This document shows positions 27,920 to 38,156 of a stretch of 42,267 bases of DNA, one piece after another; the first letter of the stretch is position 1, and each line of letters opens with the position of its first letter. Location: IMG/VR virus record IMGVR_UViG_2541047816_000004, positions 1 to 42,267 of that record. One strand, 5' to 3'. The DNA comes from a virus (taxonomy: Duplodnaviria > Heunggongvirae > Uroviricota > Caudoviricetes). The notes under the pieces were generated by a model that was not told the origin of the DNA, did not search any database, and saw only the letters and a program-made list of their open reading frames with translations. Made by a program: the position numbers and the translations under genes.

Positions 27920-27996
27920 TGGCGCGCTGTACTGGATTCGAACCAGTGACCGATTGCTTAGAAGGCAATTGCTCTGTCCGGCTGAGCTAACAACGC
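27920..27996 (-). tRNA. tRNA-Arg (anticodon TCT)
   Basis: Hand-folded cloverleaf: 7-bp acceptor, GCTC/GAGC D-stem, ATTGC/GCAAT anticodon stem, loop CTTCTAA, TTCGAAT T-loop, encoded CCA. Confidence 0.8.
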
Positions 27997-28009
27997 TGAA
28001 TACCGATAA

Positions 28010-28090
28010 TGGACCGCCATCGGGGACCCGCCCCCCGCACCAACAACCCTGTTATCGTGTCGTCTGCTCTTCCTGATAAGCTAATGGCGG
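28010..28090 (-). tRNA. Degenerate tRNA-like sequence (possible tRNA pseudogene)
   Basis: Perfect 7-bp acceptor stem CCGCCAT/ATGGCGG plus T and CCA, D- and T-stems present, but no canonical anticodon arm and aberrant T-loop GGCGGGT. Confidence 0.3.
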
Positions 28091-28097
28091 TTTGTGA

Positions 28098-28173
28098 TGG
28101 TGGCCCTTGCTGGATTTGAACCAGCGACCTGGCGATTATGAGTCGCTCGCTCTCACCACTGAGCTAAAGGGCC
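28098..28173 (-). tRNA. tRNA with CAT anticodon (Ile2-like or Met)
   Basis: GGCCCTTTAGCTCAGTGGTGAGAGCGAGCGACTCATAATCGCC...GGTTCAAATCCAGCAAGGGCCACCA, resembles ileX/ileZ as recalled. Confidence 0.8.
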
Positions 28174-29521: not shown

Positions 29522-30571
29522 TTACCCAAGCACGCCAGTTGCAAAGGCGTGATCAAGAAAACGAAAAATTAAATCAACCTGAGAACCATGCTTTTGTTCG
29601 AACGCCAGAGGATCCGCATGAAGCTCGTTGTGATGCTCCCGACACAGCGGTAGCGTGAAAATATCGTGAGATTTTGTCCCCATTCCGCCCTGACCATGAC
29701 CAATCAGGTGATGGGGATCGTCGGCTGGCTTACCACAACACGCACACGGCTGTGTCTTCACCCAGCGTGTGTATTTCTCGTTAACCCAGCGGCGACGTTT
29801 AGGTCGTTTCATGAAAGATTCCGGAGACTCAGGATCAACGGCAATGCTGACCACCGTCTTTTCCTGTGGTGGGTTCTGTTGCTGGTGGGCGTGAGGCAGC
29901 GGCGCAATATTTTTTGTGCGCTGTTTCAGTATGCTGGTGGCTGTCTGCTCTCCCGGTATGATGTCGCTCTCGCGGTAAAGCGAGCGGATTTTCTCCGCCG
30001 GTAATCCCAGTGAGCGGCGTAATACAGCCTCCGGTAGTGCGTCCGCTACCTGATTGCAGACCGCCCACCAGGATAATTCAGCCAGAGATAATTCACGCTC
30101 CTGCGTACCGCTTATTGCGTGACCGATGACGTCAATCATCCATGCTGACAGGTTTTGATGAGCAAGTTGCTCGAGTGATTCGGATGTCTGGTCACGCAGC
30201 TGGTTGTCGCAGTGCCAGCACAACACCATTGCGCCGGTACCATAACGGTGAATGACGGTTTCGCTGTGATGATAATCGCCGTGTGGCCACTGGCAGGATT
30301 TAACATGGCGCAGTAACCAGTCAGACAATGCGCCAGCGCCACCAGCAGCACGAATCACTCGTTCGTCGCTGAAAAATGGCAGTAATGATTTATCCTCCGC
30401 CAGCGGCTGGCGAACGGCAGGAACGACCCCGGACGGCAGATTACGCATGCTTTTCGGTTCCGGCTCCACCAGTACCCGGGTATTGTGGAATACCGGCATG
30501 GATTCACGGCCCGGCTTAACGATCACCAGCCCGAGTTCCGGTACCAGAACAGGTCGAAGTAATACCCGCAC
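29522..30571 (-). CDS. DUF968-domain protein (YdfU-like)
   Basis: 349 aa; C-terminal Cys/His-rich CACCGKPADDPHHLIGHGQGGMGTKSHD...LCREHH. Confidence 0.6.
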   Translation of the reverse strand: MRVLLRPVLVPELGLVIVKPGRESMPVFHNTRVLVEPEPKSMRNLPSGVVPAVRQPLAEDKSLLPFFSDERVIRAAGGAGALSDWLLRHVKSCQWPHGDYHHSETVIHRYGTGAMVLCWHCDNQLRDQTSESLEQLAHQNLSAWMIDVIGHAISGTQERELSLAELSWWAVCNQVADALPEAVLRRSLGLPAEKIRSLYRESDIIPGEQTATSILKQRTKNIAPLPHAHQQQNPPQEKTVVSIAVDPESPESFMKRPKRRRWVNEKYTRWVKTQPCACCGKPADDPHHLIGHGQGGMGTKSHDIFTLPLCREHHNELHADPLAFEQKHGSQVDLIFRFLDHAFATGVLG

Positions 30572-35781: not shown

Positions 35782-36189
35782 ATGGATACAAGAACCCTAG
35801 GCCAGCGAGTTCTGGCGCGACGAAAAGAATTACGCTTAACACAACGAGAAGCTGCGCGCCTCGCTGGAGTTGCTCACGTCACAATTTCACAATGGGAAAG
35901 AGACGAAACCCAGCCAGTCGGAAAACGATTGTTTGCTTTAGCGGATGCTCTGAAGTGCTCACCTACATGGCTAATGTTTGGTGATGAAGACAAGGCACCA
36001 GTGCCTGCACAAGAACTTCATGTGGAAACAGAGCTAACTCCCAACCACAAAGAATTGATCGAATTATTCGATGCTCTTCCATCTTCCGAGCAGGAAGCCT
36101 TGCTGTCTGAAATGCGCGCAAGAGTAGAAAACTTCAACAAACTCTTCGAAGAAATGCTTAAAGCGCGTAAAAATAAATCAATAAAATAA
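35782..36189 (+). CDS. dicA: DicA-like XRE-family HTH repressor (no peptidase domain)
   Basis: LRLTQREAARLAGVAHVTISQWERDETQP HTH; C-terminal ...RARVENFNKLFEEMLKARKN resembles DicA as recalled. Confidence 0.8.
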   Translation: MDTRTLGQRVLARRKELRLTQREAARLAGVAHVTISQWERDETQPVGKRLFALADALKCSPTWLMFGDEDKAPVPAQELHVETELTPNHKELIELFDALPSSEQEALLSEMRARVENFNKLFEEMLKARKNKSIK

Positions 36190-36357: not shown

Positions 36358-36513
36358 ATGGATACTATCGATCTTGGCAACAACGAATCTCTGGTATGAG
36401 GCGTGTTTCCCAACCAAGACGGCACGTTCACCGCGATGACGTATACCAAAAGCAAAACGTTTAAAACCGAAGCTGGCGCGCATCGCTGGCTGGAAAGAAA
36501 TTCAGGTGAGTGA
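36358..36513 (+). pseudogene. ydfA: ydfA-like small ORF (51 codons) interrupted by an in-frame TGA at codon 14
   Basis: MDTIDLGNNESLV-TGA-GVFPNQDGTFTAMTYTKSKTFKTEAGAHRWLERNSGE read in one frame; depends on exact base calls. Confidence 0.4.
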
Positions 36514-36514
36514 T

Positions 36515-36643
36515 ATGGATTTCGACGCAATCATGGAAAAGGCTTACGAAGAATACTTCGAAGGCCTTGCCGAAGGCGAAGAAGCTCTCAGCTTCAGCGA
36601 ATTTAAACAGGCGCTTTCCAGTTCGGCAAAAGCTAACAACTGA
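36515..36643 (+). CDS. ydfB: ydfB-like small protein (42 aa)
   Basis: MDFDAIMEKAYEEYFEGLAEGEEALSFSEFKQALSSSAKANN. Confidence 0.5.
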   Translation: MDFDAIMEKAYEEYFEGLAEGEEALSFSEFKQALSSSAKANN

Positions 36644-36650
36644 GAGGTTT

Positions 36651-36770
36651 ATGATGGAATTGAGAGTTTGTTTCAAACTCTCAATAAACCAGAGGCAGGT
36701 AAGGAGCGTTAAATTATTGCTTGAAAGCAATAAGATCACTCAATCTCACCGCTATAGGCATTCCATCTGA
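36651..36770 (+). CDS. ydfC: ydfC-like small ORF (start uncertain)
   Basis: MMELRVCFKLSINQRQVRSVKLLLESNK...; overlaps the 86-aa track ORF 36510-36770. Confidence 0.35.
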   Translation: MMELRVCFKLSINQRQVRSVKLLLESNKITQSHRYRHSI

Positions 36771-36797
36771 GCATGAGGGTACGCCAGAAAATATCGT

Positions 36798-37268
36798 TTA
36801 TGTGCAAAACACAGTATGGATTTTCGTCGGGAAGGAGTTGCCCTTCCATGGGGAGCAAAATATTAGCAGATACCAGTTTTTTATATCAGAATCATTGCGT
36901 ACAGCATGGATCACAGGATAGTTCCTCGATAATGCCGTAATAAGAATTTTTTTCTGACCCGCAGTCAAGGAATCGATAACTGCATTGATATGACTGATTG
37001 TTTTTTGTTCTCTTGTATTGTTCCGGTGACTTCGCCAGACCTTACGAAGAAATAAAGCTAAACGTTGGAGATTTATAGCCAGCACAAAAGAAAAGGCAAA
37101 AACGAATACCGGGTAAATATAAGGAATGCTGATTTTGTCTTGAACATACTCCGGTACAGAATCAGGCATAAAGAGCAATATCAAAACAAAGATAATAAGC
37201 ATATACATAAGGCGCTCTAAGGGTTCGTTACTGAATAACTTGCTCAACAAGCCGAATACATCAGGCAT
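36798..37268 (-). CDS. Membrane protein encoded antisense within the early-left operon (candidate superinfection-exclusion / abortive-infection protein)
   Basis: 156 aa, two predicted TM helices (MYMLIIFVLILLF..., YIYPVFVFAFSFVLAI); strongly AT-rich. Confidence 0.5.
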   Translation of the reverse strand: MPDVFGLLSKLFSNEPLERLMYMLIIFVLILLFMPDSVPEYVQDKISIPYIYPVFVFAFSFVLAINLQRLALFLRKVWRSHRNNTREQKTISHINAVIDSLTAGQKKILITALSRNYPVIHAVRNDSDIKNWYLLIFCSPWKGNSFPTKIHTVFCT

Positions 37269-37579
37269 ATTAATAACTCTCTACTGTAAGGGTATTAAAA
37301 TGCTATCACAGACTCTCGCTGTAGGGGTATAGCCGAGACCACCGAGCCTGAAGTGGTAAAAAGACAGGCACACAACACGAAAGCGCACGGCGAGGCTGTT
37401 AGTTCATAAATGGTCTGTCGTTAAATTTTCGTCGACCGTGCGCTTCCGGTTGTGGCAATCCGCGAAATGGCGCGGCGGTAAGTATGGCGGGGTTATTCCT
37501 TCCCCGTTGAGGACACCGGGTTGTCAGGTTGACCATACGCTTAAGTGACAACCCCGCTGCAGCGCCCTCTGTTATCAAT

Positions 37580-37632
37580 TTTCTGGTGACGTTTGGCGGT
37601 ATCAGTTTTACTCCGTGACTGCTCTGCCGCCC
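37580..37632 (+). ncRNA. dicF: DicF small RNA
   Basis: tttctggtgacgtttggcggtatcagttttactccgtgactgctctgccgccc followed by TTTTT, matching the 53-nt DicF as recalled. Confidence 0.75.
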
Positions 37633-37811
37633 TTTTTAAAGTGAATTTTGTGATGCGGTGAATGCGGCTGAGCGCACGCGGAACAGTTAAAACCGAAAAC
37701 TGTGTTATGGGTGGATTCTCTGTATCCGGCGTTAATTGTTAACTGGTTAACGTCACCTGGAGGCACCAGGCACCGCATCAACAAAGTTCATTTGTAAAAA
37801 TGGAGATAATT

Positions 37812-38033
37812 ATGATTGCTCATCACTTCGGAACTGATGAGATTCCTCGTCAGTGCGTGACTCCCGGTGATTATGTTATTCATAAAGGAAGAACATATAT
37901 TGCTTCGGTAAACAACATTAAAAAACAACGGCTCTATATTCGTGATTTTTCCACACAACACTGTATTAAGGAAACCATGATTAAAGTCTTCCTTGGTCGT
38001 GATGGTTTACCTGTAAAAGCAGAGTCATGGTGA
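37812..38033 (+). CDS. Hypothetical small protein in the dicB-equivalent position (not DicB-like)
   Basis: GGAG SD before ATG; 73 aa [15 protein letters not shown]... Confidence 0.45.
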
Positions 38034-38156
38034 GCAGTAATAAAATAACTGCCACAATACGACATTCAGCTTAATGAATACATCAGATTTGATTCTTATA
38101 TGCCAGCAATGGCAGGGATTTGTTCACCCTTAAATCTGTAATGAGGTTAAAACAAA

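What the first reader, a model, noticed from the sequence alone, without database searches (positions are those of the whole stretch)
36798..37268. AT-rich membrane-protein gene antisense to the dicA-ydfABC-dicF operon
A 156-aa protein with two N-terminal TM helices is inserted on the opposite strand between ydfC and dicF, in very AT-rich DNA. Prophage-expressed membrane proteins in immunity regions (SieB-, Rex-like) commonly mediate superinfection exclusion or abortive infection.
Basis: inference. Interest (0 to 1): 0.55.

Follow-up and report, generated by a model that had tools for sequence, protein, structure and literature searches.

The report
Frameshifted sieB phage-exclusion gene
The ORF is a real and already annotated copy of sieB, the prophage abortive-infection gene known from phages P22 and lambda, but this copy has lost one base in an A-run, which cuts off the conserved C-terminal domain, so it is probably a decaying allele and not a new defence gene.

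Summary
A 156-codon ORF lies at 36798..37268 (-), in AT-rich DNA (38.6% GC against 51.3% for the window). It has two N-terminal TM helices and runs antisense to dicA-ydfA-ydfB-dicF-kilR. One detail is wrong: ydfC is absent, and a 715-bp sieB module (36644..37358) replaces it.

The SieB guess is correct. The ORF matches Pfam SieB (50 bits, cut-off 26) and PHROG 6399 (1e-31). It is 42% identical to lambda SieB. It has the same antisense position as sieB in P22, lambda and K-12 Rac. Its upstream region is homologous to the mapped P22 sieB promoter. RefSeq already names the identical protein SieB.

New here: the window allele is frameshifted. An A7 run is A6 (36877..36882), so residues 131-156 are out of frame and the 46 conserved C-terminal residues are lost. 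The subfamily norm is 177 aa. An AlphaFold model shows that the break splits the cytoplasmic C-terminal domain. The allele is real (209 contigs). Both A7 runs of the gene are hit by frameshifts in natural alleles. It is most likely an impaired or decaying Abi gene.

Side finding: the conserved leader upstream of sieB precedes at least 27 unrelated cargo families, always at this same antisense slot in lambdoid prophages.

The parts
36798..37268 (-). sieB ORF as it reads in the window (156 codons plus stop). Codons 1-130 are native SieB; codons 131-156 are an out-of-frame tail.
   Evidence: ORF list; Pfam SieB 50.2 bits; PHROG 6399 E=1.3e-31, matching only aa 3-117; alignment with the 177-aa allele
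36876..36882 (-). Frameshift site. The sense strand reads ATA AAA AAC, with an A6 run at 36877..36882 where intact alleles have A7. In frame 0 this forms the heptamer A_AAA_AAC, and a -1 slip here would re-enter the native frame.
   Evidence: DNA alignment with EC261 sieB, a single 1-nt gap in the A run; reading of the sequence; literature on A_AAA_AAC
36736..36876 (-). Remnant of the native C-terminal coding region (46 codons plus stop, LVSANILLPMEGQLLPDENPYCVLHINDIFWRTLMLRWNAYSGEIE). In the window it lies in the -1 frame relative to the ORF.
   Evidence: ORF 36736..36858; translation of the intact allele; this segment is conserved in Yersinia, Citrobacter, Hafnia and lambda SieB
36947..36953 (-). 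First A7 run of the gene (sense CAG AAAAAAA TTC, codons 105-108). It is intact in the window but is the site of a second, independent class of natural frameshift alleles (118 aa).
   Evidence: Sequence; alignment of cluster members P0124, P0134 and P0138
37053..37226 (-). Region encoding the membrane hairpin: TM1 at about aa 15-33, an acidic periplasmic loop at aa 35-48, and TM2 at about aa 51-72. TM2 is followed by a basic cytoplasmic helix.
   Evidence: Hydropathy; AlphaFold helices 15-33, 37-46 and 51-99
37200..37202 (-). Codon Met23. It is invariant in 83 SieB homologues and aligns with P22 Met25, the annotated start of Esc, the internal product that inhibits SieB.
   Evidence: P22 annotation of esc 29830..30336; alignments
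37269..37310 (-). Predicted sieB promoter and 5' UTR, by homology with P22: TG 37308..37307, -10 TAGCAT 37305..37300, predicted start 37293, SD GAGAG 37281..37277.
   Evidence: Alignment with the annotated P22 sieB promoter (29690..29720) and RNA start (29727). The simple consensus scan did not call it.
37315..37369 (-). Conserved leader element: GCCTG (37369..37365), inverted repeat ACCAC-N10-GTGGT (37357..37338), and a second hairpin CTCG...CGAG (37337..37315) that encloses the first ACCCCTACAG repeat (37328..37319). The second repeat lies at 37293..37284.
   Evidence: 90% identity to P22 over 37314..37372 although the coding regions show no DNA similarity; 5-way alignment; found upstream of 27 unrelated cargo families
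36644..37358 (.). The sieB module as a mosaic block. It replaces the ydfC segment of K-12 Qin.
   Evidence: blastn of the window against K-12 Qin, Rac, FORC_082, EC261, lambda and P22
37581..37632 (+). dicF sRNA, downstream on the early-left strand. It is context, not part of sieB.
   Evidence: Rfam RF00039, 76.7 bits, full length

Best explanation
The ORF is a copy of sieB, the prophage superinfection-exclusion (abortive-infection) gene of lambdoid phages. It sits in its canonical place, antisense inside the early-left operon: repressor dicA, then ydfA, ydfB, [sieB], dicF, kilR and a recE-like gene.

In the intact family the protein is 177-195 aa. It has a short cytoplasmic N-terminus, a two-helix membrane hairpin, a long basic cytoplasmic helix and a small alpha/beta C-terminal domain. 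The P22 literature reports three things. The prophage expresses the gene from its own promoter. When a heterologous lambdoid phage superinfects, SieB stops macromolecular synthesis midway through the lytic cycle. The resident phage type escapes through Esc, an internal-start product of the same gene, and through the antisense RNA sas.

My inference on mechanism is that the cytoplasmic C-terminal domain senses or docks a phage or host component, and that the membrane hairpin with the N-terminal 24 residues executes the shut-off at the inner membrane.

The window allele has lost one A from an A7 run. The protein therefore ends after residue 130 with 26 unrelated residues and lacks half of the C-terminal domain. 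Most likely it is an impaired allele in mutational decay that no longer excludes phages. The promoter, the start codon, the TM hairpin and the Esc-type Met are still intact.
For: Family membership:
- Pfam SieB 50.2 bits against a cut-off of 26.
- PHROG 6399 'SieB' at E=1.3e-31.
- tblastn gives 42% identity to lambda SieB over aa 3-119.
- RefSeq names the identical protein WP_021538001.1 SieB.

Synteny: P22 sieB lies antisense between ral and gene 24. Lambda sieB lies antisense between orf28/ral and N. Rac sieB lies antisense between ydaF/ydaG and kilS/kilR.

Promoter: the upstream 60 nt are 90% identical to the region of the P22 sieB promoter, which the P22 GenBank record annotates together with an RNA start site.

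Frameshift:
- The only indel against the 177-aa EC261 allele is one A in an A7 run.
- The subfamily is 177 aa in E. coli, Yersinia, Citrobacter and Hafnia.
- The lost C-terminal segment is conserved across genera and in lambda.
- The PHROG match covers aa 3-176 of the intact protein but only aa 3-117 of the window protein.
- In the AlphaFold model of the intact protein (pLDDT 84.4), residue 130 lies inside helix 127-134 of the C-terminal domain, so three strands and the last helix are lost.

The allele is real and the gene is decaying: the exact protein occurs on 209 contigs; shorter variants exist; a second frameshift class hits the other A7 run.

[quoted passage not shown] Esc and sas are described in PMC12197685.
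Against: - No expression or phenotype data exist for this allele.
- PGAP does not flag it as a pseudogene.
- The truncated allele is common (209 contigs). This fits neutrality or clonal spread, but also retained function.
- The TM hairpin and the N-terminus, the parts that distinguish SieB from its inhibitor Esc, are intact, so some activity cannot be excluded.
- SieB is absent from PADLOC and NCBIfam, so there is no independent model-based check.
Confidence: 0.8

Rival explanations
1. The truncated 156-aa protein is still an active exclusion protein. The membrane hairpin, the N-terminus and the first part of the cytoplasmic region would be enough, and the C-terminal half-domain would be dispensable or only modulatory.
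For: The promoter, the start codon, both TM helices and the conserved N-terminal SNEPLERLMYM motif are intact. The allele is abundant, with the exact sequence on 209 contigs. PGAP treats it as an ordinary CDS.
Against: The lost 46 residues are conserved from E. coli to Yersinia, Hafnia and lambda. The break falls inside a helix of a compact predicted domain. Further truncations and a second frameshift class occur in the same gene, as expected under relaxed selection.
Confidence: 0.17
2. The A-run acts as a switch. Full-length SieB (with K131N) would be made at a low level by -1 ribosomal frameshifting on the in-frame heptamer A_AAA_AAC. Alternatively the gene toggles on and off in the population by slippage at its two A7 runs, in a contingency-locus-like way.
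For: The deletion creates A_AAA_AAC exactly in frame 0, and a -1 slip re-enters the native frame at CTG. A_AAA_AAC is a proven bacterial frameshift site without a known stimulator. The same A6 frameshift is seen on at least three sequence backgrounds, and the other A7 run is hit independently on two.
Against: In E. coli, A_AAA_AAC is much less shift-prone than A_AAA_AAG. No stimulator lies at the usual 5-9 nt spacing; the GGAAGG/CCTTCC hairpin is about 35 nt away and is also present in intact alleles. A7 tracts are short for true phase variation. All nine complete genomes that carry this prophage type have A6, so no switching is seen within the lineage.
Confidence: 0.06
3. The ORF is not a functional gene of this kind at all: a chance ORF in AT-rich DNA, or a membrane protein with a different role such as a holin or a Rex-like channel.
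For: None beyond the AT-richness and the generic 2-TM architecture.
Against: There are significant family matches, conserved synteny and promoter, and a chance probability for the open frame of about 1e-4. There is no Pfam match to holin or Rex families.
Confidence: 0.01

Closest known systems
SieB of Salmonella phage P22 (with Esc and the sas antisense RNA)
   Same: Same Pfam family, with the same two N-terminal TM helices followed by a cytoplasmic region. Same antisense position in the early-left operon. The 60 nt around and upstream of the annotated P22 sieB promoter are 90% identical. The Met that starts Esc in P22 (Met25) is invariant here (Met23).
   Different: Protein identity is only about 19-23%. 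The window allele is frameshifted and lacks the C-terminal half-domain. The flanking genes are ydfB and dicF/kilR instead of gene 24 and ral. Whether a sas-like RNA exists here was not established.
SieB (git) of phage lambda, 184 aa
   Same: 42% identity over aa 3-119. Same PHROG 6399. Same orientation between the N side and the ral side. Near-identical leader element.
   Different: Lambda SieB keeps its full C-terminal domain (Pfam match 1-143 of 147). The window protein matches only profile positions 1-98.
SieB (b1353) of the K-12 Rac cryptic prophage, 162 aa
   Same: Same slot: antisense between the ydfA-like ydaF and an sRNA plus kilR. The 5' end and leader are 78% identical in DNA. Same PHROG.
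   Different: The alleles differ, and coding DNA similarity is confined to the 5' part. Rac has kilS where the window has dicF. Rac SieB covers profile positions 4-171 of 183, so it is nearly complete, unlike the window allele.
177-aa SieB subfamily (E. coli EC261 WP_050483990.1; Yersinia, Citrobacter and Hafnia homologues)
   Same: 97-99% DNA identity with the E. coli members. This is the direct intact counterpart of the window gene.
   Different: One A fewer in the second A7 run, plus two amino-acid substitutions. In EC261 the prophage has a LexA-family (cI-type) repressor instead of dicA, and has no dicF.
RexB of lambda and other membrane Abi effectors
   Same: These are prophage-expressed inner-membrane proteins of the immunity region that abort infection. 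That is what SieB is thought to work like.
   Different: There is no sequence relationship (no Pfam hit). RexB has four TM helices and needs RexA, whereas SieB acts as a single gene with an internal inhibitor product.

Membership tests
SieB superinfection exclusion protein B (Pfam PF14163 / PHROG 6399) | Significant match to the family profile above the curated threshold | tested here: met
   Pfam 50.2 bits against cut-off 26, E=2.6e-13. PHROG 6399 E=1.3e-31. 42% identity to lambda SieB.
SieB superinfection exclusion protein B (Pfam PF14163 / PHROG 6399) | Two N-terminal transmembrane helices with the bulk of the protein cytoplasmic | tested here: met
   Hydropathy peaks at aa 20-38 and 47-72. 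AlphaFold helices at 15-33 and 51-99. There is a basic stretch after TM2 and an acidic loop between the TMs. The topology is inferred from the positive-inside rule.
SieB superinfection exclusion protein B (Pfam PF14163 / PHROG 6399) | Full-length architecture with an intact conserved C-terminal domain (177-195 aa) | tested here: not met
   A 1-nt deletion in the A7 run puts residues 131-156 out of frame, and 46 conserved residues are lost. Profile matches stop at aa 117-121. The break lies inside the predicted domain. By descent this is a sieB gene; as a protein it is a truncated derivative.
SieB superinfection exclusion protein B (Pfam PF14163 / PHROG 6399) | Position antisense within the early-left (pL-type) operon, between the repressor/N side and the ral/kil side | tested here: met
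   Window gene order. P22, lambda and Rac. 120 viral loci all show the same polarity.
SieB superinfection exclusion protein B (Pfam PF14163 / PHROG 6399) | Own promoter active in the lysogen | tested here: inconclusive
   The upstream region aligns with the annotated P22 promoter and RNA start. The window has TGaTAGCAT at the -10 position. The consensus scan did not call it. Activity is not testable here.
SieB superinfection exclusion protein B (Pfam PF14163 / PHROG 6399) | Internal in-frame start that gives Esc, the inhibitor of SieB | tested here: inconclusive
   Met23 aligns with P22 Met25 (the Esc start) and is invariant in 83 homologues. No SD precedes it, in the window or in P22. Translation from it was not tested.
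SieB superinfection exclusion protein B (Pfam PF14163 / PHROG 6399) | Antisense RNA (sas) that switches translation from SieB to Esc | not tested
   The original paper was not available and the P22 record does not annotate sas. The whole gene is antisense to the dicA-side early transcript, and no discrete sas-like promoter was identified.
SieB superinfection exclusion protein B (Pfam PF14163 / PHROG 6399) | Abortive-infection phenotype against heterologous lambdoid phages | not testable with these tools
   The phenotype is known only for P22 (and lambda) from the literature.
PADLOC / NCBIfam catalogued defence proteins | Match to a catalogued defence-system model | tested here: not met
   There are no hits for the window protein, the intact allele or Rac SieB. 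SieB is simply not modelled in these libraries.

The most novel reading that the evidence does not exclude
sieB may be only one cassette of a hypervariable antisense cargo slot in the early-left operon of lambdoid prophages. The slot is marked by a shared about 60-nt leader: GCCTG-CTTTT, the inverted repeat ACCAC-N10-GTGGT, and a co-varying second hairpin that involves the Shine-Dalgarno region. The same leader precedes at least 27 unrelated small-protein families, nearly all of unknown function. That would mean a common, possibly sas-like or read-through-insulating, control of prophage-expressed accessory or defence genes. Within that frame, the two A7 runs of this sieB could make it a mutationally switchable cassette.
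Probability: 0.3. Interest if true: 0.6.

Novelty: already known. Interest (0 to 1): 0.2.

Why it matters
For the finding itself, little changes. The gene is a known, annotated sieB, and its place in the immunity region is the textbook one.

Two points have practical value. First, the annotation hides that this common E. coli allele is frameshifted, along with a second allele class. Genome surveys that count 'SieB' as a defence gene will therefore over-count functional copies. Second, the SieB mechanism is still unknown. The model obtained here (membrane hairpin, long helix and a small cytoplasmic alpha/beta domain), together with natural truncation alleles, gives ready-made material for structure-function tests.

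The side observation may be more useful. A conserved leader marks a hypervariable antisense cargo slot in lambdoid prophages. It offers a simple sequence handle for collecting candidate prophage-expressed accessory or anti-phage genes.

Tried and rejected
- Chance ORF: rejected by the homology results and the open-frame probability.
- Rex-, holin- or other membrane families: no Pfam support. The only other hit was DUF3290 at E=0.027, below its threshold.
- PADLOC and NCBIfam: no hits, so uninformative.
- Sequencing error as the cause of the frameshift: rejected. The same allele is in 9 complete genomes and 209 contigs from several sources.
- ydfC in the window: searched by tblastn and absent.
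- Rfam at a permissive threshold over 36500..38100: nothing at the sieB leader. The only hits were dicF and a sub-threshold STnc100 hit downstream.
- Consensus promoter and terminator scan: it called neither the sieB promoter nor a terminator for sieB.
- Original P22 papers (Ranade and Poteete 1993): not held in the library. Details of sas and Esc therefore rest on reviews and on the P22 GenBank annotation.
- RNAalifold on 31 type-A leaders: it recovered only the invariant GCCUG/CAGGC stem, with no covariation. The second hairpin was lost to alignment length variation and had to be shown sequence by sequence. Folding energy did not tell which strand carries the structure.
- Chi-like reading of GCTCGGTGG in the leader: considered and dropped, because it is not the Chi octamer.

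Full report
**1. What is there**

The window carries a complete lambdoid prophage. Tail, portal and protease genes occupy the first 20 kb. The immunity region has this order:
- an O-like replication gene, a YdaT-like gene and a dicC/cro-like gene on the minus strand
- dicA (35782..36189), ydfA (36358..36513) and ydfB (36515..36643) on the plus strand
- the ORF in question (36798..37268) on the minus strand
- dicF (37581..37632, Rfam 76.7 bits), a short dicB fragment annotated by PGAP, kilR (37812..38033), an 824-aa RecE-like exonuclease, xis and int on the plus strand

The ORF has 156 codons and 38.6% GC, against 51.3% for the window. It has two hydrophobic segments at about aa 20-38 and 47-72.

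One detail is wrong. No ydfC is present. Against K-12 Qin, homology ends at the stop of ydfB (36643) and resumes at 37359. K-12 has ydfC in that gap, and the window has a 715-bp block with the antisense ORF. The gene replaces ydfC; it is not inserted after it.

**2. What it is**

- The protein matches Pfam SieB (PF14163, 50.2 bits, cut-off 26).
- It matches PHROG 6399 'SieB superinfection exclusion' (E=1.3e-31).
- tblastn finds lambda SieB at 42% identity over aa 3-119.
- Identical DNA in nine complete E. coli genomes is annotated by RefSeq as 'super-infection exclusion protein B', WP_021538001.1.

The position is the canonical one. P22 sieB lies antisense between ral and gene 24. Lambda sieB lies antisense between orf28/ral and N. 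K-12 Rac sieB lies antisense between ydaF/ydaG and the sRNA kilS plus kilR. dicA corresponds to the repressor, and the ydfA..dicF..kilR..recE transcription unit corresponds to the early-left operon.

The 5' flank supports this. Positions 37314..37372 are 90% identical to the region of the annotated P22 sieB promoter, although the coding DNA of the two genes shows no detectable similarity. In the alignment, the P22 -10 TAAACT and RNA start (29727) correspond to TGaTAGCAT (37308..37300) and position 37293 in the window. An SD (GAGAG, 37281..37277) and the ATG follow.

**3. The allele is frameshifted**

Against the 177-aa sieB of strain EC261 (97-99% DNA identity), the only indel is one missing A in an A7 run (window plus-strand T6 at 36877..36882). 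Residues 131-156 of the ORF are therefore out of frame. The native last 46 residues remain readable in the -1 frame (36736..36876).

- The subfamily is 177 aa long in E. coli, Yersinia, Citrobacter and Hafnia.
- The lost segment (consensus LV...VL.P..GQLLP.ENPY..L.I.DIFW..L..RWN.YSGEI) is conserved across these genera and is recognisable in lambda.
- Profile matches cover aa 3-176 of the intact protein but stop at aa 117-121 in the window protein.

The frameshift is not a sequencing artefact. The exact 156-aa protein is on 209 contigs from several sources. The most widely sampled intact 177-aa sequence listed (P0130) is on 403 contigs. The same cluster also holds shorter derivatives; strain SCU-125, for example, is annotated from Met34 only.

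A second, independent frameshift class hits the first A7 run (36947..36953) and gives 118-aa proteins on two sequence backgrounds. The A6 frameshift itself occurs on at least three backgrounds. Recurrent homopolymer frameshifts plus further truncations are what relaxed selection on a mutational hot spot would produce.

**4. How it most likely works**

Known from the literature for P22: the prophage expresses sieB, and superinfecting P22-like phages (but not P22) are aborted because macromolecular synthesis stops midway through the lytic cycle (PMC10883804; PMC6379469). P22 escapes through Esc, a product of the same gene, and through the antisense RNA sas, which switches translation between the two products (PMC12197685). 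The P22 GenBank record annotates esc as starting at codon 25 of sieB.

Shown here:
- The Met that starts Esc in P22 is invariant in 83 homologues and is present in the window (Met23, 37202..37200).
- The loop between the TMs is acidic and the stretch after TM2 is strongly basic. This implies N-in/C-in topology with a cytoplasmic C-terminal domain.

Inferred: the C-terminal domain is the sensing or docking part, and the membrane hairpin plus the first about 22-24 residues (absent from Esc) is the effector. The window allele keeps the promoter, the start codon, the hairpin and Met23 but lacks half of the C-terminal domain. I rate it as most likely impaired (about 0.65-0.7 given that it is sieB). 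Retained activity is the main rival.

A curiosity: the deletion creates the heptamer A_AAA_AAC in frame 0, and a -1 slip there would restore the native frame, giving full-length SieB with K131N. This heptamer is a proven bacterial shift site, but in E. coli it is far weaker than A_AAA_AAG. No stimulator is suitably placed. I give this reading a low probability.

**5. Comparison and novelty**

By descent the gene is a member of the SieB family. Its closest intact counterpart is the 177-aa E. coli/Yersinia subfamily, followed by lambda and Rac SieB (PHROG 6399) and, more distantly, P22 SieB. It is already annotated, so the gene itself is 'already known'. The frameshift, which PGAP does not flag, and the second frameshift class are small additions.

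**6. Side finding: the leader is shared by many unrelated cargo genes**

The conserved leader is not specific to sieB. A scan of viral contigs with ACCACNTCAGGCNNGGTGGT returned the capped maximum of 120 loci.
- After a few chance and duplicate loci were removed, 99 loci had an ORF of at least 60 aa starting 20-200 nt downstream of the motif.
- Those ORFs fall into 27 sequence clusters. SieB is only the largest cluster, with 17 members.
- Representatives of ten other clusters hit only 'unknown function' PHROGs or nothing.

With the motif placed on the plus strand, every recognisable neighbour is on the minus strand. The repressor, N, ydfA and ydfB lie beyond the cargo. dicB, kilR, ydfD, ral, cIII, kil and recE lie before the motif. 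The leader plus cargo therefore always sits antisense at the same point of the early-left operon.

Two leader architectures exist.
- In type A, the ATG follows the motif by about 36-40 nt. A second hairpin pairs a TCCT/TTCT/TGCT-type arm with the Shine-Dalgarno region. Its stem differs between loci in a compensatory way. 'TGgTATnCT' could be an extended -10.
- In type B (sieB and PHROG 1244 cargos), a promoter and a second copy of the loop motif (ACCCCTACAG, or CCCCAACAA in FORC_082) are interposed.

RNAalifold finds only the invariant GCCUG/CAGGC stem. Folding energy does not tell which strand carries the structure. Rfam has no match. What the element does remains unexplained; candidates are a promoter, insulation from read-through transcripts, and a target of a sas-like antisense RNA. 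I did not find it described in the papers I could search, but the search was shallow.

**7. Verdict**

This is an ordinary, known gene in its known place, present here as a frameshifted allele. Interest in the finding as submitted is low. The shared leader and hypervariable slot deserve a separate look.

Noticed in passing
window 37315..37369 (-); loci L010-L129: The about 60-nt leader upstream of sieB consists of GCCTG-CTTTT, the inverted repeat ACCAC-N10-GTGGT and a second hairpin. In lambdoid viral contigs it precedes at least 27 unrelated small-protein families, almost all of unknown function. It always lies antisense at the same point of the early-left operon. The second hairpin pairs with the SD region and its stem co-varies between loci. 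The function of the element is unexplained.
   Followed up: partly
window 36397..36399 (+), within ydfA 36358..36513: ydfA carries an in-frame TGA at codon 14, where AR_0017, EC261 and K-12 have TGC (Cys). None of the complete E. coli genomes matched this 1.6-kb stretch at 100%; the best was 99.9%. It is either a private nonsense mutation of this strain or a sequence error.
   Followed up: partly
L003 2426..2881 (-) (E. coli FORC_082) and similar viral loci: In the same slot, other strains carry an unrelated 151-185-aa protein (PHROG 1244, coiled coil plus CxxC zinc-ribbon motifs). It has weak sub-threshold similarity to SLATT_5 / RT-associated SLATT models (E about 2e-3 to 5e-3). Both copies of the leader repeat are changed together to CCCCAACAA.
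   Followed up: partly
window 37388..37626 versus L006 3917..4049 (K-12 Rac): dicF in the window and the annotated sRNA kilS in Rac occupy the same position, between the sieB leader and kilR. This looks like an exchangeable sRNA slot next to the exchangeable antisense cargo slot.
   Followed up: no
window 37634..37819 (+): There is a sub-threshold but full-length Rfam match to sRNA STnc100 (39.2 bits, gathering score 47, E=1.3e-6). It starts immediately after dicF and runs 8 nt into the kilR coding region.
   Followed up: no
window 37702..37785 (+): PGAP annotates a partial dicB pseudogene here in the identical AR_0017 sequence. tblastn with K-12 DicB finds nothing in the window, and the division inhibitor actually present is kilR. 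The prophage is thus a Qin/Rac mosaic, with dicA-ydfAB-dicF from a Qin type and kilR and the exonuclease from a Rac type.
   Followed up: partly
window 36659..36685 and 36704..36723: Two AT-rich perfect inverted repeats (TTGAGAGTTTG..CAAACTCTCAA and TTATTGCTT..AAGCAATAA) lie between the ydfB stop and the native sieB stop. Neither has a T-run, so the scan does not call them terminators. They may be bidirectional transcript ends for the convergent ydfB and sieB.
   Followed up: no
window 27920..28173 (-): The prophage carries tRNA-Arg(TCT) and tRNA-Met(CAT) genes.
   Followed up: no
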